A stretch of DNA of 64,000 nt from NCBI GenBank assembly GCA_964403045.1, contig CAYOEP010000001.1, positions 9,009-73,008 of the forward strand. The letters run 5' to 3'. The notes under the pieces were generated by a model. It worked only from the letters and a program-made list of their open reading frames with translations, ran no database searches and was not told the DNA's origin. Within the stretch, counting starts at the first letter, position 1. Each line of letters opens with the position of its first letter. This document shows, piece by piece, positions 1 to 26,137 of this stretch. The position numbers were made by a program, and so were the translations under genes. Source of the stretch: an uncultured Candidatus Saccharibacteria bacterium (GTDB lineage: Bacteria > Patescibacteriota > Minisyncoccia > UBA6257 > 2-01-FULL-56-20).

Positions 1-381
1 CTGTCGCTGAGCACCTCTTCTTCCTTGTTGGCGATCTTTACCACTTTGCCGTCTGGCTGGATAAGCAGCACGCTGCTGTCTTCGCGCACAAAGTAGTCTG
101 CCACGGGATTTTGCGCGACAGCTTCAAATACCGCCCGGGCTTCTTTACTGAGTTTTGTAGGATCAACTACTGGAAGAAGACTGCCGTCTTGGCCGATAAG
201 CCCTCCAGTTTCGGTAGTCGGCTGTGGCGGAGTACCGGGAGGGAGAAGTCCTCCTTGTGGTGTGCCAGGCCCATGTTCTCCCGGGGGCGTTACCGAAGTT
301 CCTCTGCCAAAGAGGAAGTAGGCAATTAGGATGATTGCCGCAATGAGCGCAATGATTCCAACGATAGAAAGAATACGCTTC
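1..381 (-). CDS. Partial CDS running off the window start; membrane-anchored protein (hypothetical)
   Basis: Minus-strand ATG at 381 opens a frame that continues past position 1. It reads MKRILSIVGIIALIAAIILIAYFLF..., one N-terminal TM helix followed by a Gly/Pro/Thr-rich segment. It is absent from the ORF track because it is truncated by the window edge. Confidence 0.5.
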
Positions 382-425
382 ATATTGAATCTGCTAATAA
401 TTATACACTATTGGCATTTGCGCTT

Positions 426-1094
426 TCATTGAACCACTAGACAGGTTCCCCCGGTACGCGACAATTTCACACAGCTTGTACAGGCGTTAGCTTCATTCAT
501 GCAAGCACTCATGGCCTTTTGGGGGCAAGGGGGAAGGGAAGGACAAGAAGCACATGGGCGGGTAAATGCTTCGTCATGAGGAGTTCTCGAGCGTACTTTA
601 CGACAAACAATCACATCTCTTTTTGTAGTATGCACGGTACCACTCATAAGCCATTGTTCGATGTCGTGGGGCACGCCACGCGCCTCGAGTTTTTGGACTG
701 CTGGGTTTTGTAGTTTTGCAATGTCGGGGTTGATGGTGTTGAAGATAAGAGAGGCTCCTACTAAGAGAAGTATTCCAGTGATTGCGCTCTTGATTCTGTC
801 TTTGGCGTCGGACTGCTTTGAGGCGTTGCCTGCCGAAACACTGTACTCAATAGCAGCAATTACGACGGCGCCGAAGGCGAGGAGCCCAACTACCGCGAGC
901 GAGAAGTTATAGAGGTTGCGGACAGTTTCCGCAGGAGTGTTCCCGCTTTCTCCCTCGGGAGTAGGGATGTACATTTTTACGTTAACCGCGTGCACTACTT
1001 GAAATGTAGAGAATATAGAAGCAATGAAGCCGATAATTAAGGCAAGCACAATGATGTTGCCGTTGCTACACTTAACCTTGGGAAGATTTGGCAT
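426..1094 (-). CDS. TrbC/VirB2-like T4SS pilin paralog with a Cys-rich C-terminal tail
   Basis: Two hydrophobic helices and the motif AIEYSVSAGNASKQSDAKDRIKSAITGILLLVGASLIF. The same motif recurs in the four pilin paralogs at 47122-48868 (SGG/AGD-x-EK...L.YAA...L.A). The C-terminal ~90 aa tail carries many Cys. The true start may be an internal Met. Confidence 0.55.
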   Translation of the reverse strand: MPNLPKVKCSNGNIIVLALIIGFIASIFSTFQVVHAVNVKMYIPTPEGESGNTPAETVRNLYNFSLAVVGLLAFGAVVIAAIEYSVSAGNASKQSDAKDRIKSAITGILLLVGASLIFNTINPDIAKLQNPAVQKLEARGVPHDIEQWLMSGTVHTTKRDVIVCRKVRSRTPHDEAFTRPCASCPSLPPCPQKAMSACMNEANACTSCVKLSRTGGTCLVVQ

Positions 1095-1108
1095 TTTCCT
1101 TGTTTTCT

Positions 1109-2323
1109 TTAGGGAAGGTAAGTAAGAGAGAGAGAAATATTTGCAGACGTAATTCCAAGCTGATCAGTGACATTTTCTGCTTCAACCAGAATATTTATTT
1201 CTTTCTTCTGTTTTACGTCAGTCATGTCTATGTCAAGAAAGGTTTGATTTTTGGGATTTGTTACAGAAGCACGATTTCCATCTATTTCCCATGAGAGGAT
1301 GATGCTAGCAAGGGCATCTTTGCTGTAGTAGAATATTTTTGCAGGGAGGCGTGCTTTTTGCGAGGAAAACACATGATGAGGAAAAGGCGCCTCGAGAACC
1401 ACCTTTGGAAAAATTACAGGCACGCGTATGGTAGTTACTGCACCCAGCCTTTCAGGGTGGTTTTTATAGTTTGATACTTCTACTCTTACCCTGTGGTAAG
1501 TATCTCCCATTCTAAATGTGCGGAAGGAGAAAGTCTGCAGCCCTATGCCGCTCTCTATAAGTTCATCATCAAGATACCATCGTATTTGCCTATTCGAGAG
1601 ATCTACCAGCTTATTGTTGTCTATAATATTGAATGACACGTTAATTTTGGTGGAGGGACCAGGGAGAGCTTTTCCTTGATACCCACGCGGTACGACACTT
1701 TCCGCTTTCCAGTCTATGAGAAATTGCACACTTGCTTCCTTGGCAAGTACTTCTTCTTCAGATTGTGGAATAGACATAAGGTAATTATTAAAACTCTCAA
1801 GCAACTTATCAAGAAGAGTGGTTGCTGCAGGATTATCTAAGGAGGGGGGGTTTTTTTCTAACTGTGAGAGCATTTCAAAAAAACTAGCTTCTGTTGTATT
1901 AGTTTGTTTGCCCTCTGTTGTAATATTAAGAGAATTAAGAAACTGTTCTAATGCTTGCTGAGAGGATTGGTTAGTAGCACTTCCGCTATTGAAATAAGTT
2001 TGATTAAGTTGCAATACTGATTTTACACCATCGATGATCTTTTGCCTCATGCTTTTTTTGAAGCCTTCTGCTTTGAGGTTGTTTTCTAACTCTTGGACAA
2101 GCTGTTGCTGATTTAATTTTCCGTTGGAGTATGCATCGAGGAGTGCGTTGCTAATGATATTTTTAAGAGATATTACTTCCGCTGAAGCACCTGCAGCAAC
2201 GGCAGACCCGGCATTTGCGGAGCTTAAGGAGAAAGAAAGGAAGGCTATGACAAATATGACAAAAAGGAAAATTATTGTTAGAAATCTCGCCCTAGCTTGC
2301 ATACTTGCATAATTGTTTACCAT
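1109..2323 (-). CDS. Secreted protein in the T4SS-like operon (hypothetical; helical N-terminal half, beta-rich C-terminal half)
   Basis: N-terminal signal/TM (FLTIIFLFVIFVIAFLSFSLSSANA) and no recognisable catalytic motif. It sits between the VirB4 and pilin genes on the same strand. Confidence 0.5.
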   Translation of the reverse strand: MVNNYASMQARARFLTIIFLFVIFVIAFLSFSLSSANAGSAVAAGASAEVISLKNIISNALLDAYSNGKLNQQQLVQELENNLKAEGFKKSMRQKIIDGVKSVLQLNQTYFNSGSATNQSSQQALEQFLNSLNITTEGKQTNTTEASFFEMLSQLEKNPPSLDNPAATTLLDKLLESFNNYLMSIPQSEEEVLAKEASVQFLIDWKAESVVPRGYQGKALPGPSTKINVSFNIIDNNKLVDLSNRQIRWYLDDELIESGIGLQTFSFRTFRMGDTYHRVRVEVSNYKNHPERLGAVTTIRVPVIFPKVVLEAPFPHHVFSSQKARLPAKIFYYSKDALASIILSWEIDGNRASVTNPKNQTFLDIDMTDVKQKKEINILVEAENVTDQLGITSANISLSLTYLP

Positions 2324-2390
2324 TTACCACTTGTGCTCCTCGGCTTTTACATTATAACATAACCACCCTTCTCGGATGCGCAGAACTCTC

Positions 2391-2741
2391 CTACTTTGAT
2401 GTTCTCGTGGTTTTCGCAATAACGTTTGCTTTTTTTGCAATCTTTGGATTATTAGTAATAAGCACAGTTATTAAAAAGCCGATAGTTTGTCCGAAAGGAA
2501 AGCCAAGAAGATCTGCAATACTTGTTGCAAGGTAAGCATTTCCTCTAACACCTTTAATGTTGAACCAGAGCTGAAGTGAAAACCAGAGGATAAGGCTGTA
2601 GGCTTTTGCAAAAGCAAGTAAAAAAAATCCAAGAATAGGTATAGCTACAAGGAACTCCCCCGCGACATCAAGCCCGTCACTTGCAAAAAGAAGGGGGAGT
2701 ACAATTAAAATTGTGGGGAGAGAGAATTTTTTTCCTTCCAT
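2391..2741 (-). CDS. Small polytopic membrane protein, T4SS-associated (hypothetical)
   Basis: MEGKKFSLPTILIVLPLLF... with about 3 TM helices. The ORF-track start at 2882 overlaps the VirB4 3' end, so an internal Met at 2741 was chosen. Confidence 0.4.
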   Translation of the reverse strand: MEGKKFSLPTILIVLPLLFASDGLDVAGEFLVAIPILGFFLLAFAKAYSLILWFSLQLWFNIKGVRGNAYLATSIADLLGFPFGQTIGFLITVLITNNPKIAKKANVIAKTTRTSK

Positions 2742-2754
2742 AATAGATAATAGA

Positions 2755-4497
2755 TTAGGAACCTTCGTCTGACTCTTGTAGCTCTTGAGCTTGCTCCATA
2801 AGCTGTTTGGGGTCGGTGGTAATAATTTTGTCTTCAAAGTAGGAAGCGATGATTTGAATGGCAACATGGTTTTGCCCCGCAAAGAAAAGGCCGGTCCCCC
2901 GCGGGGCTTCGAGGAGATAATTTTTCTCTGCTTCTGTGAGGTTGAATGCTTTCCCTACCACATCAATAGTCGCGGGCGATTGGCGGAGGAGAAGCTGGAT
3001 AGTGGAGTTGGTGATAATGGGGCGCCCGTATTTCGAGTTCAGGAAATCTTCCACGTCTTGGGTGATGGTGGTAATGCCAAGATAGTACTTTCGCCCCCTC
3101 TTAACAAGACCAAAGAGGAAGCGCGCGCCTTCCTCGTGCTGCATCATTGTCCACGCCTCGTCCACGATGAGGATACGCTTCGCGCGCCGCGCTCTGACGA
3201 GATTCCAGATAAAATTCAGTACAATATACATCGCGATGGGGCGGAGCTCATCTTCGAGATCGCGGATAGAGAAGATAATAAAGCGATTGTTTACGTCGAT
3301 GTTGGTGGGCTTGTTGAGGAATCCCGAAAAGCTCCCCTTGGTGTATTTGTAGAGGCGGTCAGCCATCCCCCGTCCCCCTTCGAGGTTGCGGAGAATAGTT
3401 TCGAGATCTTCGAGGAGCGGCGGCTCCGCTCCGGTGAAGTCTTCTCCTGGTACGATTTCGCGGGAGGCATATGCCTCGGTGATGGCGCGGTCGAGGATAG
3501 AATCCTCCTCGCTACTTAGTGAGCCGCCCAGCATTAGCTTGAGAAGTCCTGCGATATTGACAATATGCGAGCGGAGTACATCAGACGGATCTTCGCCTTC
3601 TGGCACGACGGGAACGTCGAAGGGATTAATGTGCTCTTCTGAGGAAAGGGAAATGTTGAAGTAGCTCCCCCCGAACGCCTCCGCGAGCGGCTTGTACTCA
3701 TTTTCAGGGTCAATCACGATGACTTCCGTGCCCATCATTAGGGAGCGGAGGATTTCCAGTTTGGTGGCATAGGACTTTCCTGCGCCGGATCGCGCGAACA
3801 CGACTTGGTTGGCATTTTCCAGCGAGAAACGGTCAAAGATAATAAGGCTGTTGTTCTGGCGGTTGATGCCGTACATAATGCCCTCGTCGGAGGTAAGGTT
3901 CTCTGAAACGAAAGGAAAGAAGGAAGAAAGCGGCCCCGAGTTCATTGGGTTCGTGATGGAAATTTTGTCTTCTACCATAGGCAGGATGGTGGAAAATCCC
4001 TCGAGCTGCTGGAAGAGTGCTGGCTTGAAGTAGGTAAGCTTCGCGTCCATCAGTGAAAGGACTTTGCTTTCCAGCTTCGCAAGCTCCTCTTTGCTGTCGG
4101 CATAGATTGTAAGGTAAACACCTACGTTGAAAAGTTTTTCTTGTGATTGCTGGAGAAGGTCGCGGAGATTTTCCACATCGTGAAGCGCAGTTTCGAGCAA
4201 GGGGTCCCGCACTTCCCCCTTTTCCTCTTTGTCTTCAAGCTGGGATTGTATCTGCGCGGTCTTTTTTCGGAGCTTCTTGAGCGCGATGCCGGTGTCGACA
4301 GGTGAGATATGGATGGAAATATCGAAAAGATTGGGGAGGTTGATGAGGGGCGCGAACCAGCCGGTGGAAAGATAGCGGGGATAAGAAAGGATATAGAGTG
4401 TTTTCGCAAACTTATCTCCTATCTTGAGATAGTTCGACTCGACTTTGATGCCTGAGGAGGCAATGATTTTTTTGATACTGTCAAACCTTTCTGACAT
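2755..4497 (-). CDS. virB4: VirB4/TrbE/CagE-family T4SS ATPase, C-terminal ATPase part
   Basis: Walker A FARSGAGKSYATK and Walker B ILIVDEAW. Upstream is the conserved PRYLSTGWFAPLINLPNLFDISIHISP region typical of VirB4. Confidence 0.85.
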   Translation of the reverse strand: MSERFDSIKKIIASSGIKVESNYLKIGDKFAKTLYILSYPRYLSTGWFAPLINLPNLFDISIHISPVDTGIALKKLRKKTAQIQSQLEDKEEKGEVRDPLLETALHDVENLRDLLQQSQEKLFNVGVYLTIYADSKEELAKLESKVLSLMDAKLTYFKPALFQQLEGFSTILPMVEDKISITNPMNSGPLSSFFPFVSENLTSDEGIMYGINRQNNSLIIFDRFSLENANQVVFARSGAGKSYATKLEILRSLMMGTEVIVIDPENEYKPLAEAFGGSYFNISLSSEEHINPFDVPVVPEGEDPSDVLRSHIVNIAGLLKLMLGGSLSSEEDSILDRAITEAYASREIVPGEDFTGAEPPLLEDLETILRNLEGGRGMADRLYKYTKGSFSGFLNKPTNIDVNNRFIIFSIRDLEDELRPIAMYIVLNFIWNLVRARRAKRILIVDEAWTMMQHEEGARFLFGLVKRGRKYYLGITTITQDVEDFLNSKYGRPIITNSTIQLLLRQSPATIDVVGKAFNLTEAEKNYLLEAPRGTGLFFAGQNHVAIQIIASYFEDKIITTDPKQLMEQAQELQESDEGS

Positions 4498-4502
4498 AGG
4501 CG

Positions 4503-5225
4503 CTAGGATGTTGCATTGTCGCTGGGAGCATTTTCCTCTCGTGTTTCTTGGGGTAGCTCGAGATCTTCCCGCTCCACAGTTTCCGGATTGTAGAAGTTGT
4601 AGAAAAGCTCTACGATTTCTTGGTCGTTGAGCACCTTTGTTTCCAACCCCATCGCACGGATTCCTCCCTCCACCTGTGCAACCCGCTGATTGAGCTGGTC
4701 GAGGTTGCGTGCAAAATTTTTCTCTGCCTCTTCTTGGATTTTCTTTTCCCGTTCCTTCTTACTCTCTTTTTTGAAGAATGGGAAAATGCCGCCAAATTTC
4801 GCGCCCGCCCCGCTGGCTAGCGAAACGGAGCCGGAGAACGTAACCACGACGAAGAATTTTTTCTCCATAATTTCATTTTCAGCGACGAACGCTTTCACAA
4901 ACTCGCGGTACTCGGTAAGCTGGTCGCGCAGGAGCTCGGACGGCTCTTCCTCAATACGCTTGTCGATAGTGGCAATGTAATGGTCGATATTGAGCTTGCG
5001 GGAGTGCACAATGATCTGCAGGGGAAAATCGATTCCATTGAGAAAATTTTGAAAGCTGTGCGTGAGGATGTTCTGCTCGTCAACTGATTTAAGAGAGAAA
5101 TTAACTCCGGAGACCATAATAATTTTCAAGAGGCGCCCGTCTTTTGCAAGAATTGCACCTTCCTTGAGGTCCTTGATAGGGATAAGGTCTTGCGTGTTGC
5201 CAAAATTCGCAGTGCTGGAGCTCAT
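4503..5225 (-). CDS. virB4: VirB4 N-terminal domain encoded as a separate ORF (split gene, or frameshift/pseudogene)
   Basis: IPIKDLKEGAILAKDGRLLKIIMVSGVNFSLKSVDEQ... matches the conserved start of VirB4/TrbE. It stops at TAG 4503-4505; the next ORF starts 5 nt downstream in a different frame. Confidence 0.6.
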   Translation of the reverse strand: MSSSTANFGNTQDLIPIKDLKEGAILAKDGRLLKIIMVSGVNFSLKSVDEQNILTHSFQNFLNGIDFPLQIIVHSRKLNIDHYIATIDKRIEEEPSELLRDQLTEYREFVKAFVAENEIMEKKFFVVVTFSGSVSLASGAGAKFGGIFPFFKKESKKEREKKIQEEAEKNFARNLDQLNQRVAQVEGGIRAMGLETKVLNDQEIVELFYNFYNPETVEREDLELPQETREENAPSDNATS

Positions 5226-5290
5226 AGAGATGGTAAGATTTTTGCTGCTTTAATTATATCCTGAGGGGGGCAAAGAGAAAAATGTTGTGG

Positions 5291-5794
5291 TTAATAATCT
5301 ACCCGCTTCGCGATCTTGCGTTGTCCTGAAATGTCTTCGAGAACTTCATAGCGCTCTTGCTGGCTTGCTGCCGCCTGCTTCTTTTGGGAGGAAGATTGCA
5401 GTTTGTGCCACGCCTGCTTGAGGGCAGTGCCGTAGATAATTTGGTCGAGGGCAATCCCGCTTTTCTTAGCTTCCTCCCGCAGTGCATCTTTCGATTTTTG
5501 CATATGGGGCTGATCCGGCTTCCACACGTAGGTTTGTGGGTTCCAGATGAAGAAGAACGCGGAGAGGAGGACTTTTGGGAGTTCGCGGCCATTGATTTTG
5601 ATGAAAGCAAGGGCGCCGGCAGCAGAAACGAGCACAAGGGAAATCATAAACCATGTCCCCATATTGCCGAGGAAAAAGAAGAGGAAAAACGAAATCACGC
5701 CCGCAGAGCCCACGTAGAGGAACTGCTTGAGCGTAAAAGGTCCGATGATTTTGTCTTCGGTTTCTATGAACTGGGGAACTTGGAATTGCGCCAT
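5291..5794 (-). CDS. PrgI-family (VirB3-analog) small membrane protein
   Basis: The N-terminus FQVPQFIETEDKIIGPFTLKQFLYVGSAGVISFFLFFFLG followed by a second TM is typical of PrgI-like proteins of Gram-positive-type T4SS. Confidence 0.6.
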   Translation of the reverse strand: MAQFQVPQFIETEDKIIGPFTLKQFLYVGSAGVISFFLFFFLGNMGTWFMISLVLVSAAGALAFIKINGRELPKVLLSAFFFIWNPQTYVWKPDQPHMQKSKDALREEAKKSGIALDQIIYGTALKQAWHKLQSSSQKKQAAASQQERYEVLEDISGQRKIAKRVDY

Positions 5795-5875
5795 AGCTTT
5801 GCTACCAGTATACCGCAGAATGGCCTGCCGCTACACTCTCGTCTCGCGGCTCTTAGGAGCGCTTTTGGGGAGATG

Positions 5876-6898
5876 TTATTTATCGGAAAGCTTTACTTTT
5901 TTGAGATGGGTGGTGTCTACTACCACACGGGGCGGGGTGGTAGCGCGCGGCGGTGGAGGCGGCGGAGGAGGAAGCGTGCCGCGCGCCTCTTTCTGCTGAG
6001 GGCGCGGAGGCGCTTGGGGCGGTGGAGATTGCGCGGAGGACGTGCCAATTTCAACGTGGGCAGGGCGGATATGGACGGTGGCAGACTGGATAGTAGAAGG
6101 AGCAGAGAAATCCTTTTTCTTCTCGAGAACATTTGATTTTACGGAGAGCCCTTTCTTGATCGGGGCGGCATCGCCGCGCTGGTAGAGCATATGCGGGGCT
6201 CGCACGGGAGGTTGCTGTGCGGGGCGGTGCGGTTGCGGCGGTGCGCTTGGCACAGGCGGGTGCGGGGATGCAGGCGGAGGGGAAGGATGAGAAACTGCCG
6301 CCGGCTTGGGAGTTGGCGGCTTGGGGCGAGGCGCAACAGGGGCTTGAGGCTTATGGATAACTACGCGGGGAGTGGAAATGGTGACTTCCTGCTGAGGAGG
6401 CTGCGGAGGTGCCTTTAGCGGAGGAGGGGCAGATTTATGCGAAGAGGTTGGTTGAGGAGGCGCGGAAGGAGGAGCTGGCTGTGCCGCTATTGCTTTTTTA
6501 GGGGGAAGCGTGGGGGGCGGTGTTTTTTTTTCTGGCTCCTGCGTTTCTTCTTCGTGGGGATGTGGGAGCGGCGCGTATACCTTGTCGAGCTCGTCGCGAA
6601 TGCCTTGGAAGATTCGATTCTCGAGGGAATTTGCAATACTTTCAGCAGTTTTGGGGTCAATCGAACTCTCTTGAGTAATAAGATGCGCTGCTTCTTCGGG
6701 ATGGAGAAAGCCGAGCAGCACGAGACCTGTCGCGCTCGCGATGGCAGGAACTTTTTCGGAGGGTATATGATGTTGCTCGGCAATTCGCGAAATTGTTTCC
6801 GCTATTTGAGGAGAGAAAATTAAGTCCTGAAGGAACTTGGGCAGGGTAAGAAATCGCTTGCGCGCCTGCTGAGTTGTAGGAATTGGAATGGCTGCCAT
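5876..6898 (-). CDS. Proline-rich low-complexity protein (hypothetical, T4SS-associated)
   Basis: Long PPxP/PQPP tracts and a poly-P run (PPPPPPPP). A structured N-terminal ~110 aa precedes the low-complexity region. Confidence 0.5.
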   Translation of the reverse strand: MAAIPIPTTQQARKRFLTLPKFLQDLIFSPQIAETISRIAEQHHIPSEKVPAIASATGLVLLGFLHPEEAAHLITQESSIDPKTAESIANSLENRIFQGIRDELDKVYAPLPHPHEEETQEPEKKTPPPTLPPKKAIAAQPAPPSAPPQPTSSHKSAPPPLKAPPQPPQQEVTISTPRVVIHKPQAPVAPRPKPPTPKPAAVSHPSPPPASPHPPVPSAPPQPHRPAQQPPVRAPHMLYQRGDAAPIKKGLSVKSNVLEKKKDFSAPSTIQSATVHIRPAHVEIGTSSAQSPPPQAPPRPQQKEARGTLPPPPPPPPRATTPPRVVVDTTHLKKVKLSDK

Positions 6899-6918
6899 AA
6901 GGAGTTAATAGGAGTTAA

Positions 6919-9171
6919 TTATGACGACGGATGTTCTTCGCTTGTGACGTTGCCCTTTTCATCAAAGGTGGTGCGAGAACGTACATTCCTCGGCGCCTCT
7001 TCAAGGTTTTCTTTGTCCACCGGCCTTCCCGACGCATCGTAGAGGACCACTTTTTCTTTTGTTGGTTCTGGGGATTTCTTCTCAGCCGAAGGCGTGCCGC
7101 CTTTCAGGAAAATCTCCAGCTCTTTCTCTCCCCGGATGCCAAGGATATTAAGCGCAGCGTTGCTGTTGAACCAGCGGCGGTTTTGCGGGCTGAAGTGCTC
7201 CGGCTTGAGCCCGATATCTTGAGCAGTCTTCTGGTAGGCGCCAAGCGCGTTGTTTTTAGCGAGTTCTTTAAAGAATTCCGACAAATTGTGCGGCGAGAAT
7301 CCCTTCGCAATGCCCAGTATAATTTCTGCCCGGAGAGAATGCAGACCAGCAGCATCCAGTCCATATGGAGTTTTGCCCTTTTTGATATCTTCCTCGCTGA
7401 CGGAAAAGATCTTTGAGAGAGCTTCCGGGCTTGCGGCCTTGAGAGCTTTCTCCTTCTTTTCTTTGAGTTTTTGAATTTCTTCTGCAGGGGCGCCGCGTTT
7501 TTCGGCGGCTTCGAGTTCTTGTTTTGCTTCCACGAGAGCAACGCCGGACTTTCCGCGAAGTTCTTCAAATGTCTTGGCACGGTGGAAGCGCTTAAACTTC
7601 CCTGCATTCTCTTTCGAGAGTAATTTCTCGGCTCCTTGTACTTCATTGAGTCGCCCCGCCTTATTGATGAGCTCCAGCATTGCAATTTGCTCGGGGGTGC
7701 TTTTTGCTGCGTGCACTGATTTGATCATCTGGTCTACGCTCATCTTCTTCTCAAGGCGTGCCTTTTCTGCATCTACGAGCTTCTCTCCGTGGCTCCGGGC
7801 GATCGTTTCTAACCCTCTCCCTGCTCTCTTTGTAAGTCTGCCAACGACAGGCACACTGTGAAGTGTTTTAATCCACCCCTCTGCTGCCTCCTTGTTCTGA
7901 AGTTGTTCAGTGATTTTCTGACCTCGTTCTGTTCGCAACGGCGCAGTGGCTATTCTCCCCATGCCTCTCCCGATGCCTCGCGCTCCGCGCGCCGCTCCCA
8001 TGCCCATAAACCTTCCGCCTTTCTTCGCCCATGCCATTGCCGTTCCTGCTCCTGCAATAGAAAGCCGTTGTGCTACTACAAGTCCTCCCCATATAAGACC
8101 AACGACTACCGCAGATTGCAATCCTGCTTTCAGAATATGGGCGAAAGTCTCTGTTATGAACTGAACTATGCCTTTATAGGAATCGCCTTTCGTTGCTGCA
8201 TCGACGTAAGGCTCTGTTGCAACTCCCGCCATTGCTGCAACCCATAAAAAGAAAAGCATAATTGGCGCGAAGATGGTCCACTTGATGAATACCGACCACC
8301 ATTCACTCCAGTATTTTCTCGTAGTTGGAAAGACCCAAAGTACCCAGATAAGTGGCATGATAATAAGAAGAATAGAAAGCACTACATACCGTATGAGGAG
8401 CATTATCCCAATTGCCCCAACGACTACCGATGTCAGAGCAAGTGCAACGGTCATGAATCCGAGCACGACGATAACATAAAATACTCCTTCCGATTGCGCT
8501 GTTTCCGCGAATACCGATTTTAACTCATTAGCGGCTTGTTTATCTAAATGCCCGGAGCCCGGCTCATTTTCCGGCGTAAAAAACCGCTGGGGATTCAAGG
8601 CCCCCATAATCCTTATGGATAAGCCATCCGGTCCATTGAATCCCTTATCGATGATATATGAGGTAAAAGAATCTGCGGTCCCGATAATGGGCCCTACGAT
8701 CACGAGACTGAAGTTGACGAGAAGCGCGGCGATGATGAGCTTTGCGAAGGCTTTCTTGATGCCGTATTCTTGGACACGAAGAATAGTTGCAACAGCGATG
8801 ACAATTAGGATTGCAGCGAAGCCAAGGTTTGCGATAGAAAGTGATGCCTGAAAACCGTTTTCAACAGTTAGATTGTTATTGAGAATATTCTTGCTTACTT
8901 CGAGAATGAGGTCGATAAAGAAGAATTCCACGTTGAGGATGAACGCGAAAAATGTCGCTATTGCTGAGGCGAGCATTCCGACCACATAGCCGAAGAACCA
9001 TTGGAGGGCGCTCTCAAAAGAAGCTCTCGCGGGCAAGGGAGAAGAAATTCCTACGAATGTTGCAACGGCAAGGAGCAGAAATAGGAAGGGGACTAAGGGG
9101 CGTTTCTTGAATTTTGGACGTACCTGCACAATGGTCAAAACCCTTCGCTTTTTTGATGGTTGTATTGCCAT
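6919..9171 (-). CDS. VirB6/TrbL-like polytopic membrane protein with long cytoplasmic C-terminal extension
   Basis: At least 7 TM helices in the N-terminal 400 aa, followed by a Gly/Arg-rich segment (GMGAARGARGIGRGMGR) and a helical, charged C-terminal tail. It lies immediately upstream of the virB4 block. Confidence 0.55.
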   Translation of the reverse strand: MAIQPSKKRRVLTIVQVRPKFKKRPLVPFLFLLLAVATFVGISSPLPARASFESALQWFFGYVVGMLASAIATFFAFILNVEFFFIDLILEVSKNILNNNLTVENGFQASLSIANLGFAAILIVIAVATILRVQEYGIKKAFAKLIIAALLVNFSLVIVGPIIGTADSFTSYIIDKGFNGPDGLSIRIMGALNPQRFFTPENEPGSGHLDKQAANELKSVFAETAQSEGVFYVIVVLGFMTVALALTSVVVGAIGIMLLIRYVVLSILLIIMPLIWVLWVFPTTRKYWSEWWSVFIKWTIFAPIMLFFLWVAAMAGVATEPYVDAATKGDSYKGIVQFITETFAHILKAGLQSAVVVGLIWGGLVVAQRLSIAGAGTAMAWAKKGGRFMGMGAARGARGIGRGMGRIATAPLRTERGQKITEQLQNKEAAEGWIKTLHSVPVVGRLTKRAGRGLETIARSHGEKLVDAEKARLEKKMSVDQMIKSVHAAKSTPEQIAMLELINKAGRLNEVQGAEKLLSKENAGKFKRFHRAKTFEELRGKSGVALVEAKQELEAAEKRGAPAEEIQKLKEKKEKALKAASPEALSKIFSVSEEDIKKGKTPYGLDAAGLHSLRAEIILGIAKGFSPHNLSEFFKELAKNNALGAYQKTAQDIGLKPEHFSPQNRRWFNSNAALNILGIRGEKELEIFLKGGTPSAEKKSPEPTKEKVVLYDASGRPVDKENLEEAPRNVRSRTTFDEKGNVTSEEHPSS

Positions 9172-9180
9172 TACCTCTTT

Positions 9181-10932
9181 TTAGAGAATTCCTTTTCTTA
9201 TGATTTCATTGAGCCTAGCTTTCGCTACAGACTTCACAAGATCAATTATTGTTTTCATTATCAGCTCTGAATTTTGCCCTACCGTGTTTGCTGTCTTTTG
9301 AATTCTTTCTTGGGCAACTTCTTGAGAGAGGGCTTCGACGACGAATTTCGCAGGTGTAGTATTTTTCCATTCATCGCAAAGTTTAACTGCACATGTATTA
9401 GGAACTTCAGAAGTTTTACAGTCCAAAGTTCCCTCTATGTAATCTTCTCCATAGTCTACCTTCGGATCATCGCCCTTGCCAATATATGCTCTATGAGAAG
9501 AAACGCACACACGAGTAGGGCGAAATCCGTTTCCCGATTCGGCGTCGGATTTCTCTGCTTCTTGCTTTTGCGACGCCCTCAGACCAACTTTTTCCTTCAT
9601 TGTAACAAGAGCCCCAAAAATGTTATTCTGCGGTTTCAGCATTTCACCGTAAGCGACCCACCCCCCCGTTTCGAAGCTTCGGTAAAAGTCTTTTACGTTA
9701 CTCACTACGTCATCTAATGTACACTCTACGCCTTCTTCTGGGGGAACATTAGGAAGCGGAGTCGCAGCAATAGTGAGGAGTGGACCAAAGGAATTGCACA
9801 GGAAAGGCGCGCTTTCTGCAACAACTTCACCCGCCGCGCTCTTTGCTGCCTTTTTGAGAAATCCTTTCCAGTCAGTGACAAATTTCGGTTTTTTCCCGCC
9901 TCTAACCCACGCAAGCGTTTGCCTTGCAATGCCATTAATTATCTTTGACTTGGCACTCTCTAGTAATTCTTCGCCTATTACATCCAAAATCATTTGAGCT
10001 ATGTTGCCTGGGTCAAACACAATATCTCCGAGTCCTAAGAAGGCATGTGCTGTGGGGATAGTCATAAACCCCTTTATAAAAGCAATGAAATGACTTTCCT
10101 CATGCTTCTGCTTGAGCAAGGAAGAAGGGTTCAGGGCAGAATGTAGCTCTTGGGAAAGTTGGTGCGATAGATTCTGTAGTTCTTTTTTCTGGACGTTGAA
10201 GACAAGAAGGGACTTTAGAGGATCAGTTGAATTGACGAGCGTGGAAAGTTGCTTTATTTGGGCAATCAAAAGAACAAATTGCTTGTGGAAAGAAGAGAAT
10301 AGCTCAGGCGCATGCAGCTCTAATACTTCCTGGAGCATCTTCTCTAGCATGAGATTTGTAGCTATGGAAAGGGTTCCTGCTTCCTCCTTGTTGGCAGCAA
10401 TATCGGTAAGATTTTTGATAGCACGCGTATATTTGTTGAAAAACCCCTCAAGACGCTCAAGATAGCCAGATGTATCTGCGGACGGATCTATAATTGCCTG
10501 GGAAGCAATTTTCTCTGCCTTGCGTCGAAGCAACTGCAATTCTTGCTTTATTTCGGAAACTCGATCTGGCGTGAGAATGTCCGTAGAGTTTGTTTGAGCG
10601 AGATTCAATTGCTGCAGAATCTGCTCTTTGCTAAGCTTATTGGCGTCTTTCTCTTTGAGGAAAAGAGAAACTTTGTGTAAATCAATTGCAGTAATTTCTT
10701 TGATAACAGCGTCGGAAAACGCTTCAGTGAGGGTAAAGGGTTCGGAGGAAAGGGTTGCTGGGGGGATAGCTTCGGTGCCGATAGCATTGACAGGGACAGT
10801 CGTCTGGACGTCCTGCGGCGGCGCGGAGGAGTGCGCAGAGAATGAAGAAGAGAAAAAGAACGAGAAAGAGCCCGTCGCTGTTGCTACGACAAGGAATGTG
10901 GCGGCAAGCGTTCTGAACGATGGATGCTCCAT
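9181..10932 (-). CDS. Large secreted Cys-containing protein, first gene of the T4SS-like operon (hypothetical)
   Basis: Signal peptide (MEHPSFRTLAATFLVVATATGSFSFFF), 583 aa, several Cys pairs near the C-terminus. Confidence 0.5.
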   Translation of the reverse strand: MEHPSFRTLAATFLVVATATGSFSFFFSSSFSAHSSAPPQDVQTTVPVNAIGTEAIPPATLSSEPFTLTEAFSDAVIKEITAIDLHKVSLFLKEKDANKLSKEQILQQLNLAQTNSTDILTPDRVSEIKQELQLLRRKAEKIASQAIIDPSADTSGYLERLEGFFNKYTRAIKNLTDIAANKEEAGTLSIATNLMLEKMLQEVLELHAPELFSSFHKQFVLLIAQIKQLSTLVNSTDPLKSLLVFNVQKKELQNLSHQLSQELHSALNPSSLLKQKHEESHFIAFIKGFMTIPTAHAFLGLGDIVFDPGNIAQMILDVIGEELLESAKSKIINGIARQTLAWVRGGKKPKFVTDWKGFLKKAAKSAAGEVVAESAPFLCNSFGPLLTIAATPLPNVPPEEGVECTLDDVVSNVKDFYRSFETGGWVAYGEMLKPQNNIFGALVTMKEKVGLRASQKQEAEKSDAESGNGFRPTRVCVSSHRAYIGKGDDPKVDYGEDYIEGTLDCKTSEVPNTCAVKLCDEWKNTTPAKFVVEALSQEVAQERIQKTANTVGQNSELIMKTIIDLVKSVAKARLNEIIRKGIL

Positions 10933-11009
10933 AGAGCTTTTATTTGGTCTTATTATACCACTTTTGGGGAGCGTGACTTTTCCACAGAGGCAGGTTTACA
11001 GCTTTCTTG

Positions 11010-11837
11010 TCAAGAACATGGGCCGCTGGCGCGGGAGGCGTGGAGAAGGCCGCTCAGCTTGCAGAGCGTTGCGGGGGTGAGGAGCTGGGCGCGTGCGGAA
11101 GGCGGCAGGGAGAGCCTGGAAAGTGCTGCACGAATTGCTACCTCTGGAAATGAAGTTTTAAGGTTATTGACAAGCGTTTTTCGGGGGTGCGCGAATGCGG
11201 CGTGGAGCGTGGTGTAATAGCGTTCCCTATCGCAGGGAAGGCGGTGGCGGGTGGTGAGCTTGATAAGGGCGGAGTCTACACGCGGCGGCGGCATGAAGGA
11301 AGTGCGGGGGATTGTGGTGATGAGGCGCGGCGAAGCCCAGAACTGCACGCTGAGCGCGAGCTTGTTGGCGCGCGGCGCGGTAGCGACAATGCGGTGCGCG
11401 ACTTCCTTTTGCACGACCAGCAGGCACCCGCGCGGCGGCGGCGCGAGCTCGCCTATTTTGCGGAGAAGGATGCCAGTAAGCGAATAAGGAATGCTCCCTA
11501 CAATCACATAGGAAGCATTGGAAAGCGAGGAGGGAATCTGAGGGAGAAGATCGCGTGCGTCGCCTTCCTGCAGGACTGCGGGGATAGGACATTGGGGGAG
11601 CGCTCGCGCAAGAAATGCTGCCAGCCTTCGATCTTTCTCAATTGCAATGATGTGGCGGTAGGGAGCGGCTCGGTCGCTCGCCAGCGGCAGGGTAAGCGCT
11701 CCCTTCCCCGCACCTATTTCCACCACTGTTTCCGCAGCAAAACTGCGCGTTGCATCGAGAATGCGTTGGATGATTGCCCTGTCATTGAGGAAATGCTGTC
11801 CCCATTGCTTCCTTTTCTGTGGGGGGCTATATGGCAT
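11010..11837 (-). CDS. rsmA: 16S rRNA (adenine1518/1519-N6)-dimethyltransferase
   Basis: GQHFLNDRAII signature, SAM-binding VVEIGAGKGALT, C-terminal helical domain. The start was trimmed to MPYSPP..., because the longer ORF overlaps the divergent gene. Confidence 0.85.
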   Translation of the reverse strand: MPYSPPQKRKQWGQHFLNDRAIIQRILDATRSFAAETVVEIGAGKGALTLPLASDRAAPYRHIIAIEKDRRLAAFLARALPQCPIPAVLQEGDARDLLPQIPSSLSNASYVIVGSIPYSLTGILLRKIGELAPPPRGCLLVVQKEVAHRIVATAPRANKLALSVQFWASPRLITTIPRTSFMPPPRVDSALIKLTTRHRLPCDRERYYTTLHAAFAHPRKTLVNNLKTSFPEVAIRAALSRLSLPPSARAQLLTPATLCKLSGLLHASRASGPCS

Positions 11838-11880
11838 AAAGTTATCGATTCTCCTTGCGTGTTGCTTTCTATATTGTATA

Positions 11881-12924
11881 ATGCCAAGTATTAGTACAGC
11901 TTCTACAATTGCAAAGAACATCCAGGAAAGCAAGGCGTTGGTGGGAAAAGCGCTTTTTCTCTTGTGCATTGCGGTAGTGCAAGGAGTGCTATGGTATAGC
12001 GCTGACAGCAGGAAGGGAATTCTTGGCGGTCCCGTGGAAGTGCAGAAAATTCTTGCTGCAGATATTGCCCTACCCCGCGCGGTGCTCTCCGATGTCCCTT
12101 TTCTCCGCGAGGAGAAAGCACGGGATGCTGCATTGGCGGCGCAGGGGCAACTCCTCCCGTCCAGCGCCGAGGAAAGTGCCGCACTCCGCGCGACAGGGAA
12201 TCCTCTAGGGGTGCTCGCAGGCTCTCCCGGTGTGGTTATCTACCATGTGAAGAAGGGCGACACGCTTTCTGGGATCGCGAGTCGGTTTGGAATTTCCCTA
12301 CGGACGGTGGTGGCAGCAAATCCTGAGGTGCGCGCCCGCGCGCTCCACATCGGGCAGTCACTCTACATTTTGCCAGTTGCCGGTGTGGTCTACACAGTAC
12401 TTCCCGGCGACACGCTTGCGAGTATTGCGAAAAAGTTTGACGTTACCGTAAAAGAACTGCGGCAATACAACCACACGCTTGAAAGCGAGGGGTTGCGCCC
12501 CGGGATAAAGCTTGCAATCCCTGGTGTCGTGCCTGAAATAAAGGCGGACAGATCCTATGCAAAAGCGCGGCGCTACTTCGTGCAGCCCGCCCAAGGACTG
12601 AACTGGGGAAAGCTCCATCCTAAGAATGCGGTAGACATTGCAAATGCGTGCGGCACGGAAGTGGATGCAGCGGCTGAAGGGCTCGTGGTAGATATAGGAA
12701 GGAAGGGATGGAACAGCGGCTATGGCCACTATGTGACTATTGAGCATCCCAATGGGGCAAAGACGAAATATGGTCACTTGGGAGAAATTTCTGTTGCCAT
12801 AGGAGACTATGTTGCCCAGGGGCAAAGAATTGCCGAGATGGGCAATACAGGAAACGTGCACGGGCCCACTGGCTGCCATCTTCACTTTGAAGTTTACGGG
12901 ATGGCGAATCCCTTTGTGCGCTAG
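11881..12924 (+). CDS. LysM-domain M23 family peptidase (membrane-anchored)
   Basis: Two LysM repeats (YHVKKGDTLSGIASRFGIS...; YTVLPGDTLASIAKKFDVTVKELRQYN) and an M23 catalytic region (HYVTIEHPNGAKTKYGHL...GNTGNVHGPTGCHLHFEV). Confidence 0.85.
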   Translation: MPSISTASTIAKNIQESKALVGKALFLLCIAVVQGVLWYSADSRKGILGGPVEVQKILAADIALPRAVLSDVPFLREEKARDAALAAQGQLLPSSAEESAALRATGNPLGVLAGSPGVVIYHVKKGDTLSGIASRFGISLRTVVAANPEVRARALHIGQSLYILPVAGVVYTVLPGDTLASIAKKFDVTVKELRQYNHTLESEGLRPGIKLAIPGVVPEIKADRSYAKARRYFVQPAQGLNWGKLHPKNAVDIANACGTEVDAAAEGLVVDIGRKGWNSGYGHYVTIEHPNGAKTKYGHLGEISVAIGDYVAQGQRIAEMGNTGNVHGPTGCHLHFEVYGMANPFVR

Positions 12925-26061: not shown

Positions 26062-26137
26062 GCGCCTGTAGCTCAACGGTGAGAGCAGCCGTCTTATAAG
26101 CGGCAGGTTCCTGGTTCGAATCCAGGCAGGCGCACCA
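26062..26137 (+). tRNA. tRNA-Ile (anticodon TAT)
   Basis: Acceptor GCGCCTG/CAGGCGC, D-stem GCTC/GAGC, anticodon stem GCCGT/GCGGC with loop CTTATAA (TAT at positions 34-36), T-loop TTCGAAT, discriminator A, CCA encoded. Confidence 0.65.

What the first reader, a model, noticed from the sequence alone, without database searches (positions are those of the whole stretch)
2755..5225. VirB4 encoded as two ORFs (N-domain 240 aa + ATPase 580 aa) separated by TAG-5nt-ATG in different frames
The upstream ORF (4503-5225) carries the hallmark VirB4 N-terminal sequence (KDGRLLKIIMVSGVNFSLKSVDEQ). The downstream ORF (2755-4497) carries the Walker A/B ATPase. Together they make ~820 aa, the length of an intact VirB4. 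The junction (TAG at 4503-4505, ATG at 4497) has no homopolymer, so it is either a genuine split gene with translational coupling, an inactivating mutation, or an assembly error.
Basis: seen in the sequence. Interest (0 to 1): 0.5.

Follow-up and report, generated by a model that had tools for sequence, protein, structure and literature searches.

The report
Naturally two-gene VirB4 secretion ATPase
The two adjacent reading frames are real and are a conserved, already described arrangement in Patescibacteria (CPR bacteria), where the first ~220 residues of the type IV secretion ATPase VirB4 are made as a separate small "TrsD-like" protein; this is not a frameshift, pseudogene or assembly error.

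Summary
On the minus strand a 240-aa ORF (5225-4503, stop TAG 4505-4503) is followed after 5 nt by a 580-aa ORF (ATG 4497 to 2755) in another frame.

The two ORFs tile a full-length VirB4. The first matches only VirB4 N-termini and folds like the N-terminal part of R388 TrwK/VirB4. The second holds the rest of the N-domain and the Walker A/B ATPase.

The split is not a lesion. All 120 best homologues of the small ORF are standalone proteins of 215-253 aa. In 41 of 43 species-level Patescibacteria genomes the same two genes sit side by side, separated by -11 to +149 nt, in all three relative frames, within the conserved order VirB6 / unknown / PrgI / small ORF / ATPase / unknown / pilin. Rare fused forms (793 and 797 aa) exist, and their junction is a disordered linker. 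Bacillota plasmids carry the same pair, broken at the same point (pGO1-type TrsD plus VirB4).

A 2025 paper (PMC12102498) already reports TrsD as the most abundant T4SS component in Patescibacteria, usually next to virB4, and lists it as essential in Ca. Southlakia epibionticum ML1. Verdict: genuine two-gene VirB4, already known, low interest.

The parts
4503..5225 (-). TrsD-like protein (240 aa): the detached N-terminal subdomain of VirB4. The conserved core is residues ~10-214 and ends in the motif ELFYNFYNPE. Residues 215-240 are a variable acidic tail.
   Evidence: NCBIfam hits fall only on VirB4 N-termini and on TrsD. All 120 best homologues are standalone proteins of 215-253 aa. The AF2 model has pLDDT 86.7, and its top 14 PDB matches are all TrwK/VirB4 chains. 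Precomputed Pfam family is PF26593 'TraC-like'.
4498..4502 (-). 5-nt spacer between the TAG of the small ORF and the ATG of the large ORF. No Shine-Dalgarno-like sequence lies upstream.
   Evidence: Relatives have spacers of -11 to +149 nt, median 8.
2755..4497 (-). VirB4 core (580 aa). Residues ~1-200 are the second N-domain subdomain. Residues 202-560 are the RecA-like ATPase domain, with Walker A at 237-242 and Walker B at 445-449.
   Evidence: NCBIfam conju_CD1110 scores 397 bits against a cutoff of 325, covering profile positions 186-734 of 752. Pfam P-loop_TraG, AAA_10, DUF87 and CagE_TrbE_VirB all hit. PDB 4AG5 VirB4 C-terminal domain matches at E 5e-47 over residues 202-560.
5291..5794 (-). 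PrgI / VirB3-like membrane protein (167 aa), directly upstream of the small ORF.
   Evidence: Pfam PF12666 PrgI, E 4.7e-9. It is syntenic in nearly all related loci.
5876..6898 (-). Conserved 340-aa protein of unknown family, part of the cluster.
   Evidence: No Pfam or NCBIfam hit. Homologues sit at the same position in most related loci.
6919..9171 (-). VirB6/TrbL-like polytopic membrane protein (750 aa).
   Evidence: Weak Pfam TrbL hit, E 0.005, below the cutoff. It is syntenic in relatives, and the counterpart in L046 carries PF19590 TrbL_3.
1109..2323 (-). Conserved 404-aa protein of unknown family, downstream of the ATPase gene.
   Evidence: Syntenic in most related loci at 26-36 % identity.
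426..1094 (-). T4SS pilin-like protein (222 aa).
   Evidence: Pfam PF18895 T4SS_pilin, E 2.9e-8. Syntenic in relatives.
2391..2741 (-). Small hydrophobic ORF (116 aa from ATG 2741). It looks like a membrane protein and lies between the ATPase gene and the 404-aa gene. Whether it belongs to the cluster is not established.
   Evidence: Read from the sequence. No Pfam hit. Conservation was not tested.

Best explanation
This is the normal chromosomal type IV secretion locus of a Parcubacteria/Paceibacteria-type CPR bacterium, and in this lineage VirB4 is encoded by two genes.

The upstream gene makes a ~220-residue soluble alpha/beta protein, the TrsD-like or 'TraC-like' domain, which is the first subdomain of the VirB4 N-terminal domain. 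The downstream gene makes the remaining N-domain subdomain plus the RecA-like ATPase. The break lies in a poorly conserved, disordered linker, between the motif ELFYNFYNPE and the motif (K)IIAPxGVxVxxNYLKIGDKF.

Shown here: homology, collinear tiling of a full VirB4, conservation of the two-gene state, synteny, and the fold of the small protein.

Inferred, not shown:
- The two polypeptides associate non-covalently to rebuild a VirB4 protomer.
- The small protein supplies the surface that, in R388 TrwK/VirB4, mediates N-domain dimerisation and docking on VirB3 and VirB8 at the membrane (review PMC12857230). PrgI/VirB3 is encoded immediately upstream here.
- The genes are co-transcribed.
- In this genome, ribosomes terminating at TAG 4505-4503 may re-initiate at ATG 4497.

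By analogy with Ca. Southlakia epibionticum ML1, where the T4SS genes including the TrsD homologue are listed as essential for epibiotic growth (PMC12102498, citing Wang et al. 2023), the machine probably serves host interaction rather than plasmid transfer.
For: 1. Complementary coverage of full-length VirB4 profiles:
- Small ORF: CD1110 1-129 of 752, VirB4_CagE 7-176 of 792, VirB4_plasma 101-234 of 894.
- Large ORF: CD1110 186-734, VirB4_CagE 239-729, VirB4_plasma 293-893.

2. Fold. The AF2 model of the small ORF has pLDDT 86.7. Its top 14 Foldseek PDB hits are all TrwK/VirB4 chains (probability 0.99-1.0, ~190-220 aligned columns). The next hits are unrelated, with E around 0.09 and above.

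3. Conservation of the split.
- 120 of the 120 best homologues of the small ORF are 215-253 aa.
- 149 of the 150 best 50 %-cluster representatives are 443 aa or shorter.
- 118 of the 120 best homologues of the large ORF are 558-605 aa.
- 41 of 43 species-representative loci have stop + separate start, with spacers of -11 to +149 nt and relative frames 0/1/2 = 14/17/10.

4. Conserved gene order around the pair.

5. Rosetta-stone fusions. P0354 (793 aa) appears in two assemblies within the same synteny. P0127 (797 aa) and L033 are also fused. The model of P0354 aligns end to end (about 800-830 columns) with TrwK chains of 753-808 residues at E down to 9e-20, and its junction (residues 208-235) has pLDDT below 50.

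6. The same break point in a Geobacillus plasmid pair, PrgI / 318 aa / 636 aa DUF87, and a pair annotated 'TrsD' + DUF87 in a Halobacillus plasmid.

7. Literature. PMC12102498 reports 2,272 TrsD homologues in Patescibacteria, 1,664 of them next to virB4.
Against: Physical association of the two proteins is not shown. The fused-homologue model has low global confidence (pTM 0.47; rmsd about 19 A to TrwK), so the relative placement of the two parts is not supported by modelling.

Translational coupling is not conserved: 20 of 41 relatives have gaps of 15 nt or more. Most genes in this window lack a Shine-Dalgarno sequence, so its absence here is uninformative.

The small ORF scores far below NCBIfam's TrsD cutoff (35 bits against 200), and the local Pfam copy has no model that hits it.

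No reads are available, so the exact 5-nt spacer in this MAG cannot be verified.
Confidence: 0.9

Rival explanations
1. Recent inactivating frameshift (pseudogene) or sequencing/assembly error in an originally single virB4 gene.
For: The frames differ, only 5 nt separate stop and start, and the lengths sum to a full-length VirB4. Rare relatives have a single fused ORF. The sequence comes from a MAG and no reads are available.
Against: 41 of 43 species-level relatives have the same two genes, with their own stop and start codons, different spacers (-11 to +149 nt) and all three relative frames. Both ORFs are intact and conserved. The large ORF starts with a Met at the position where its homologues start. 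There is no homopolymer at the junction. The fused relatives are distant (45-74 % identity), not near-identical genomes.
Confidence: 0.02
2. Programmed -1 ribosomal frameshifting (or another recoding event) produces a fused full-length VirB4 from the two frames, alongside the separate products.
For: The frame of the large ORF is open, with no stop, for 261 nt upstream of ATG 4497. It overlaps the last 87 codons of the small ORF in the -1 frame.
Against: No X XXY YYZ slippery heptamer lies near the end of the small ORF (sequence read). Relatives show all three relative frames and spacers up to 149 nt, with intervening stops, so no recoding signal is conserved. A shift far upstream would replace conserved residues of the small ORF with out-of-frame sequence.
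Confidence: 0.02
3. The small protein is homologous to the VirB4 N-terminus but works as an independent, dissociable accessory factor rather than as a constitutive piece of the VirB4 protomer. It might be a membrane adaptor on PrgI/VirB3 that recruits or regulates the ATPase, or be present at a different stoichiometry.
For: It has been a separate gene over a very long evolutionary span. It evolves faster than the ATPase part (36-59 % against 53-77 % identity across the same loci). Some homologues carry long low-complexity tails (P0181, P0246, P0185). In Gracilibacteria, TrsD homologues are reported not to be linked to virB4 (PMC12102498). [quoted passage not shown]
Against: Fused forms occur in the same clade and the same synteny, which argues for a 1:1 assembly in one complex. 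The pair tiles VirB4 collinearly without gap or overlap.
Confidence: 0.06

Closest known systems
TrsD + VirB4 pair of Patescibacteria T4SS (Quinonero-Coronel et al., Microb Genom 2025, PMC12102498; Ca. Southlakia epibionticum ML1 locus, Wang et al. 2023 as cited there)
   Same: Same phylum-level group. The same small protein, remotely homologous to the VirB4 N-terminus, is encoded next to virB4. The companions are the same (PrgI/VirB3, VirB6, VirB2-like pilin). The setting is chromosomal, among housekeeping genes.
   Different: Nothing substantive: this window is one more instance. The paper describes TrsD as an accessory component of unknown function. It does not spell out that TrsD plus the short VirB4 tile a full VirB4, nor where the break lies. 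Those points are shown here.
TrsD/TrsE of Staphylococcus aureus pGO1 (TraD/TraE of pSK41) and related Bacillota plasmids: the MPF_FATA pGO1 subclass
   Same: Gene order is PrgI/TrsC (VirB3-like), then a small TrsD-like protein, then the VirB4-type ATPase. The break point is the same as in the Geobacillus pGspE55-1 pair: small ORF 7-219 aligns to 39-228 of the 318-aa protein, and large ORF residue 7 aligns to residue 33 of the 636-aa DUF87 protein. NCBIfam TrsD hits at E 1.2e-8.
   Different: Identity is only 21-29 % over full-length matches. The score (35 bits) is far below the NCBIfam TrsD cutoff of 200. The plasmid proteins are longer (318-345 aa). Those systems are plasmid conjugation machines with relaxase and coupling protein, whereas this locus is chromosomal, with no relaxase or VirD4 among the large ORFs of the window. 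pGO1 itself was not examined here.
Single-chain VirB4 (R388 TrwK, PDB 7O41/7O42/8RTD; monoderm CD1110-family VirB4; Thermoanaerobacter VirB4, 4AG5)
   Same: The two ORFs together are collinear with and the same length as a single-chain VirB4. The ATPase domain, Walker motifs and N-terminal fold all match.
   Different: Here the chain is broken after the first N-domain subdomain. Sequence identity to TrwK is only 12-16 %.
VirB3-VirB4 fusions of some conjugative systems (mentioned in PMC12102498)
   Same: Another example of variable gene boundaries among the VirB3 / VirB4 N-domain / VirB4 ATPase modules of the inner-membrane complex.
   Different: That is the opposite event (fusion rather than fission). 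No VirB3-VirB4 fusion is present here, where PrgI is a separate gene 65 nt upstream.

Membership tests
VirB4 family T4SS ATPase (large ORF 2755-4497) | Scores above the curated cutoff of a VirB4 family model | tested here: met
   NCBIfam NF045971 conju_CD1110 scores 397.3 bits against a cutoff of 325. Pfam P-loop_TraG (96 bits, cutoff 25.8), AAA_10, DUF87 and CagE_TrbE_VirB (22.3 bits, cutoff 21) also pass.
VirB4 family T4SS ATPase (large ORF 2755-4497) | Walker A and Walker B motifs in a RecA-like C-terminal domain homologous to solved VirB4 structures | tested here: met
   SGAGKS at 237-242 and VDEAW at 445-449. 4AG5 matches at E 5e-47 over residues 202-560, and TrwK matches 230-536 to 446-740.
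VirB4 family T4SS ATPase (large ORF 2755-4497) | Complete N-terminal domain on the same polypeptide (~800 aa single chain) | tested here: not met
   The ORF is 580 aa and starts at profile position 186 of 752 (CD1110) or 239 of 792 (VirB4_CagE). The missing part is the adjacent small ORF.
VirB4 family T4SS ATPase (large ORF 2755-4497) | Encoded in a cluster with other T4SS inner-membrane components | tested here: met
   PrgI/VirB3-like, VirB6/TrbL-like and T4SS pilin genes lie on the same strand within 9 kb, and the order is conserved in 43 loci.
TrsD / 'TraC-like' (PF26593) family: detached VirB4 N-terminal subdomain (small ORF 4503-5225) | Sequence homology to the N-terminal portion of VirB4 and to TrsD profiles | tested here: met
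   NCBIfam hits to VirB4_plasma 101-234 (E 9e-14), VirB4_CagE 7-176 (E 3e-9) and TrsD 21-143 of 201 (E 1.2e-8). The identical database protein P0001 carries the precomputed family PF26593, named 'TraC-like'.
TrsD / 'TraC-like' (PF26593) family: detached VirB4 N-terminal subdomain (small ORF 4503-5225) | Scores above NCBIfam's curated TrsD/TraD cutoff (NF041427) | tested here: not met
   35.1 bits against a cutoff of 200. It is a remote homologue, not a member by that model. The CONJScan TrsD profile used in PMC12102498 is not available in these tools.
TrsD / 'TraC-like' (PF26593) family: detached VirB4 N-terminal subdomain (small ORF 4503-5225) | Standalone small protein encoded immediately upstream of a short VirB4 gene and downstream of PrgI/TrsC | tested here: met
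   The same order is seen in Bacillota plasmids.
TrsD / 'TraC-like' (PF26593) family: detached VirB4 N-terminal subdomain (small ORF 4503-5225) | Fold equivalent to the N-terminal part of a solved VirB4 | tested here: met
   The top 14 Foldseek PDB hits are all TrwK/VirB4 (probability 0.99-1.0, E 6e-4 to 7e-3, TM normalised to the query 0.37-0.45). The match is modest in TM-score, and the aligned residue ranges in TrwK were not returned.
TrsD / 'TraC-like' (PF26593) family: detached VirB4 N-terminal subdomain (small ORF 4503-5225) | Physically assembles with the VirB4 core and is required for T4SS function | not testable with these tools
   Only indirect support is available: fused relatives and the reported essentiality of the homologue in Ca. 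S. epibionticum ML1 (PMC12102498).

The most novel reading that the evidence does not exclude
Detaching the VirB4 N-terminal subdomain is functional rather than neutral. As a separate protein, TrsD-like would stay bound to PrgI/VirB3 at the membrane as a permanent docking platform. The ATPase core would then bind and leave reversibly, or be present at a different stoichiometry. This would give the essential Patescibacteria T4SS (and pGO1-type systems) a regulated, dissociable motor, unlike the fixed VirB4 hexamer-of-dimers of R388.
Probability: 0.12. Interest if true: 0.45.

Novelty: already known. Interest (0 to 1): 0.12.

Why it matters
The practical value is for annotation. In CPR/Patescibacteria MAGs a ~225-aa 'hypothetical protein' followed by a ~575-aa 'DUF87/ATP-binding protein' should not be flagged as a frameshifted virB4 pseudogene or merged. 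It is the normal two-gene form of the T4SS motor.

The analysis adds small clarifications to the published description:
- The pair tiles a complete VirB4.
- The break lies in a disordered linker inside the N-terminal domain, not at the N-domain/ATPase boundary.
- The break point is shared with Bacillota plasmid TrsD-VirB4 pairs.
- Rare natural fusions exist, and these could serve as templates for structural work on this T4SS, reported as essential for epibiotic growth in Ca. S. epibionticum ML1.

Tried and rejected
1. Frameshift or assembly error. Rejected on conservation of the two-gene state.

2. Programmed -1 frameshift. Considered because the large ORF's frame is open for 261 nt upstream of its ATG. 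Rejected because there is no slippery heptamer, and frame and spacer are not conserved.

3. Shine-Dalgarno absence as evidence for coupling. Only 24 of 76 long ORFs in the window have even a loose SD motif, and most T4SS genes have none, so the absence is uninformative.

4. The small ORF and the first ~165 residues of the large ORF as an ancient tandem duplication. Their secondary-structure orders look alike, but hhalign of the two families gives probability 0.06 % and E 0.73. There is no support at the sequence level.

5. Profile search of the small-ORF family against PDB sequences. This found nothing relevant: the only hit is a ketoacyl-ACP reductase at E 0.5. The relationship to TrwK is visible only by fold and through the NCBIfam profiles.

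6. The local Pfam library has no model hitting the small ORF, even at E up to 10. The family PF26593 appears only in the precomputed annotations.

7. The AF2 model of the fused homologue P0354 was meant to show how the two parts dock. Global confidence was too low (pTM 0.47) for that purpose. It is used only for collinearity and for linker disorder.

Full report
**1. Observation.**
The window carries, on the minus strand, a 240-aa ORF (5225-4503) that ends in TAG at 4505-4503. Five nucleotides follow (cgcct). An ATG at 4497 then opens a 580-aa ORF ending at 2755. The second frame is -1 relative to the first. ATG 4497 is the first start codon after the upstream in-frame stop, so the large ORF cannot be extended.

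Walker A (237-242) and Walker B (445-449) are in the large ORF. No homopolymer sits at the junction. The nearest is an A7 run at 4467-4473, downstream of the ATG.

**2. What the two ORFs are.**
The large ORF is a VirB4-type ATPase:
- It passes NCBIfam's curated cutoff for the monoderm CD1110 VirB4 family (397 bits against 325) but covers only profile positions 186-734 of 752.
- It hits Pfam P-loop_TraG, AAA_10, DUF87 and, at residues 27-152, CagE_TrbE_VirB.
- Residues 202-560 match the solved C-terminal domain of Thermoanaerobacter VirB4 (4AG5, E 5e-47), and residue 230 corresponds to TrwK residue 446.

The small ORF hits only the N-terminal ends of VirB4 profiles (VirB4_plasma 101-234, VirB4_CagE 7-176, CD1110 1-129) and the TrsD/TraD family profile.

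The two ORFs therefore tile a full VirB4 without overlap. The break falls inside the N-terminal domain, not at the N-domain/ATPase boundary, because the large ORF keeps about 200 N-domain residues.

An AlphaFold2 model of the small ORF, built on a 118-sequence alignment, has mean pLDDT 86.7. Its top 14 Foldseek matches in the PDB are all TrwK/VirB4 chains of the R388 system, with probability 0.99-1.0 and ~190-220 aligned columns. After those, the hits drop to unrelated proteins at E around 0.09 and above.

**3. Lesion or genuine state.**
The identical small protein is in NCBI as a hypothetical protein of a 'Candidatus Parcubacteria bacterium' MAG. Four samples give the same picture:

| Sample | Result |
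|---|---|
| 120 best homologues of the small ORF (46-59 % identity) | all standalone, 215-253 aa |
| 150 best representatives of 50 %-identity clusters | one is VirB4-sized (P0127, 797 aa) |
| 120 best homologues of the large ORF (71-77 % identity) | 118 are 558-605 aa; exceptions are P0354 (793 aa, fused) and P0328 (651 aa, partly fused) |
| 43 species-representative genomes, all Patescibacteria-type MAGs | 41 have small ORF ending in its own stop, then a large ORF with its own ATG |

Across the 41 split loci the spacer runs from -11 to +149 nt (median 8). Twenty-one are 10 nt or less, twelve are 11-50 nt and eight are over 50 nt. The relative frame is 0, 1 or 2 in 14, 17 and 10 loci. One locus (L033, Colwellbacteria) is fused but truncated at its C-terminus. 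One (L036) has a broken small ORF.

The surrounding order is conserved: VirB6-like, 340-aa unknown, PrgI, small ORF, ATPase, 404-aa unknown, pilin.

A frameshift or misassembly cannot produce the same two genes in dozens of genomes with different spacers and frames. That reading is rejected.

**4. The junction is a linker.**
In all the loci the small protein ends with the conserved motif ELFYNFYNPE, followed by a variable tail of 10-28 residues. The large protein starts with a variable leader of about 5-45 residues before (K)IIAPxGVxV..NYLKIGDKF.

In the fused relative P0354 the corresponding segment (residues 208-235) has pLDDT below 50. P0354 is found in two assemblies, within the same synteny. 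Its model aligns end to end, over about 800-830 columns, with TrwK chains of 753-808 residues at E down to 9e-20.

The rigid-body fit is poor (rmsd about 19 A) and pTM is 0.47. That model therefore supports collinearity only. It does not show how the parts dock.

**5. Expression.**
The 5-nt gap would allow termination-reinitiation coupling. Half of the relatives have gaps of 10 nt or less, including overlaps of the TAATG type. The other half have gaps of 15-149 nt, so coupling is not a conserved requirement.

No Shine-Dalgarno-like sequence precedes ATG 4497. This is uninformative, because most genes in the window, including the other T4SS genes, lack one.

The large ORF's frame is open for 261 nt upstream of its ATG. 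I considered programmed -1 frameshifting and rejected it. There is no slippery heptamer, and neither frame nor spacer is conserved.

**6. Comparison with what is known.**
Quinonero-Coronel et al. (Microb Genom 2025, PMC12102498) surveyed T4SS in Patescibacteria. They report that:
- It is the most abundant T4SS component they retrieved: 2,272 homologues, 1,664 of them associated with virB4.
- The homologue in Ca. Southlakia epibionticum ML1 is listed as essential.

The arrangement found here is therefore already described. The rest of the window is housekeeping (NusA, H+-PPase, FtsH, GyrA, PNPase, FtsK), which fits their picture of a chromosomal system.

Bacillota plasmids carry the same arrangement. 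Geobacillus pGspE55-1 has PrgI, then a 318-aa protein, then a 636-aa DUF87 protein. A Halobacillus plasmid has a protein annotated 'TrsD' followed by a DUF87 protein. The break point is the same in the Geobacillus pair: small ORF 7-219 aligns to 39-228, and large ORF residue 7 aligns to residue 33. The fission is thus either old and shared, or it recurs at the same linker. I did not resolve which.

By NCBIfam's curated TrsD cutoff the small ORF is not a member (35 bits against 200). It is a remote homologue. The precomputed Pfam family is PF26593 'TraC-like'.

**7. Mechanism.**
Shown here: homology, tiling, fold, conservation and synteny.

Inferred:
- The two proteins assemble into one VirB4 protomer.
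- The small protein supplies the N-domain surface that, in R388, joins VirB4 dimers and contacts VirB3 and VirB8 at the membrane (review PMC12857230). PrgI/VirB3 is encoded immediately upstream.

The main rival that survives is that the small protein is a dissociable adaptor rather than a fixed part of the protomer. Several observations point that way:
- It has been a separate gene over a long evolutionary span.
- It evolves faster than the ATPase part.
- Some homologues have low-complexity tails.
- It is reported as unlinked from virB4 in Gracilibacteria.

The natural fusions argue for a 1:1 complex.

**8. Verdict.**
'N-domain + ATPase' needs correcting to 'first N-domain subdomain + rest'. 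Translational coupling is possible but not conserved.

The feature is an ordinary instance of a published arrangement. Novelty: already known. Interest: low (0.12).

Noticed in passing
window 26062-26137 (+): tRNA-Ile with anticodon UAU (ARAGORN; Rfam tRNA 74 bits). From my own knowledge, most bacteria decode AUA with a lysidine-modified CAU tRNA, so a UAU tRNA-Ile is uncommon and may say something about AUA decoding in this lineage.
   Followed up: no
window 2391-2741 (-): A 116-aa hydrophobic ORF (MEGKKFSLPTILIVLPLLF...), with several likely membrane spans, lies between the VirB4 ATPase gene and the 404-aa gene. It has no Pfam hit. It may be an unrecognised small T4SS membrane component.
   Followed up: partly
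window 4498-4761 (-): The reading frame of the large ORF contains neither a stop nor a start codon for 261 nt upstream of ATG 4497. It overlaps the last 87 codons of the small ORF in the -1 frame. This is longer than the 70-110 nt seen in relatives. No slippery site was found, so it is probably chance.
   Followed up: partly
P0181 (417 aa), P0246 (443 aa), P0185 (364 aa); Some TrsD-like homologues carry 150-220-residue low-complexity extensions rich in P, Q, S and T. These are C-terminal in P0181 and P0246 and N-terminal in P0185. About 30 of the 150 cluster representatives are 280-443 aa long. The function of these tails is unknown.
   Followed up: no
L033 191-2158 (Candidatus Colwellbacteria MAG); L046 4001-6382; L047 1196-3577: Natural single-ORF (fused) versions of the pair occur in a few Patescibacteria. 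L033's copy loses homology after 'PIAMY' and ends early, so it is a possible pseudogene or misassembly. P0354 is intact and was seen in two assemblies.
   Followed up: partly
L036 2500-3228: In this MAG the small ORF is interrupted: homology stops at query residue 131 and a stop falls at 3004, while the large ORF is intact. This is a likely local frameshift or assembly error, showing what a true lesion in this gene looks like.
   Followed up: no
window 1-12000 versus the rest: The T4SS cluster sits directly beside ksgA/rsmA (11010-11969) and other housekeeping genes. No relaxase or VirD4-type coupling protein is among the ORFs of 380 aa or more in the window. GC content in the cluster is somewhat lower and more variable (0.455-0.54) than in most of the rest of the window (mostly 0.51-0.59, with dips to 0.46-0.48).
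   Followed up: partly
window 9181-10932 (-), 5876-6898 (-), 1109-2323 (-): Three sizeable cluster genes (583, 340 and 404 aa) have no Pfam or NCBIfam hit. The 340-aa and 404-aa genes are syntenic across most related loci. They are candidates for the missing VirB8-like or VirB1-like functions.
   Followed up: no
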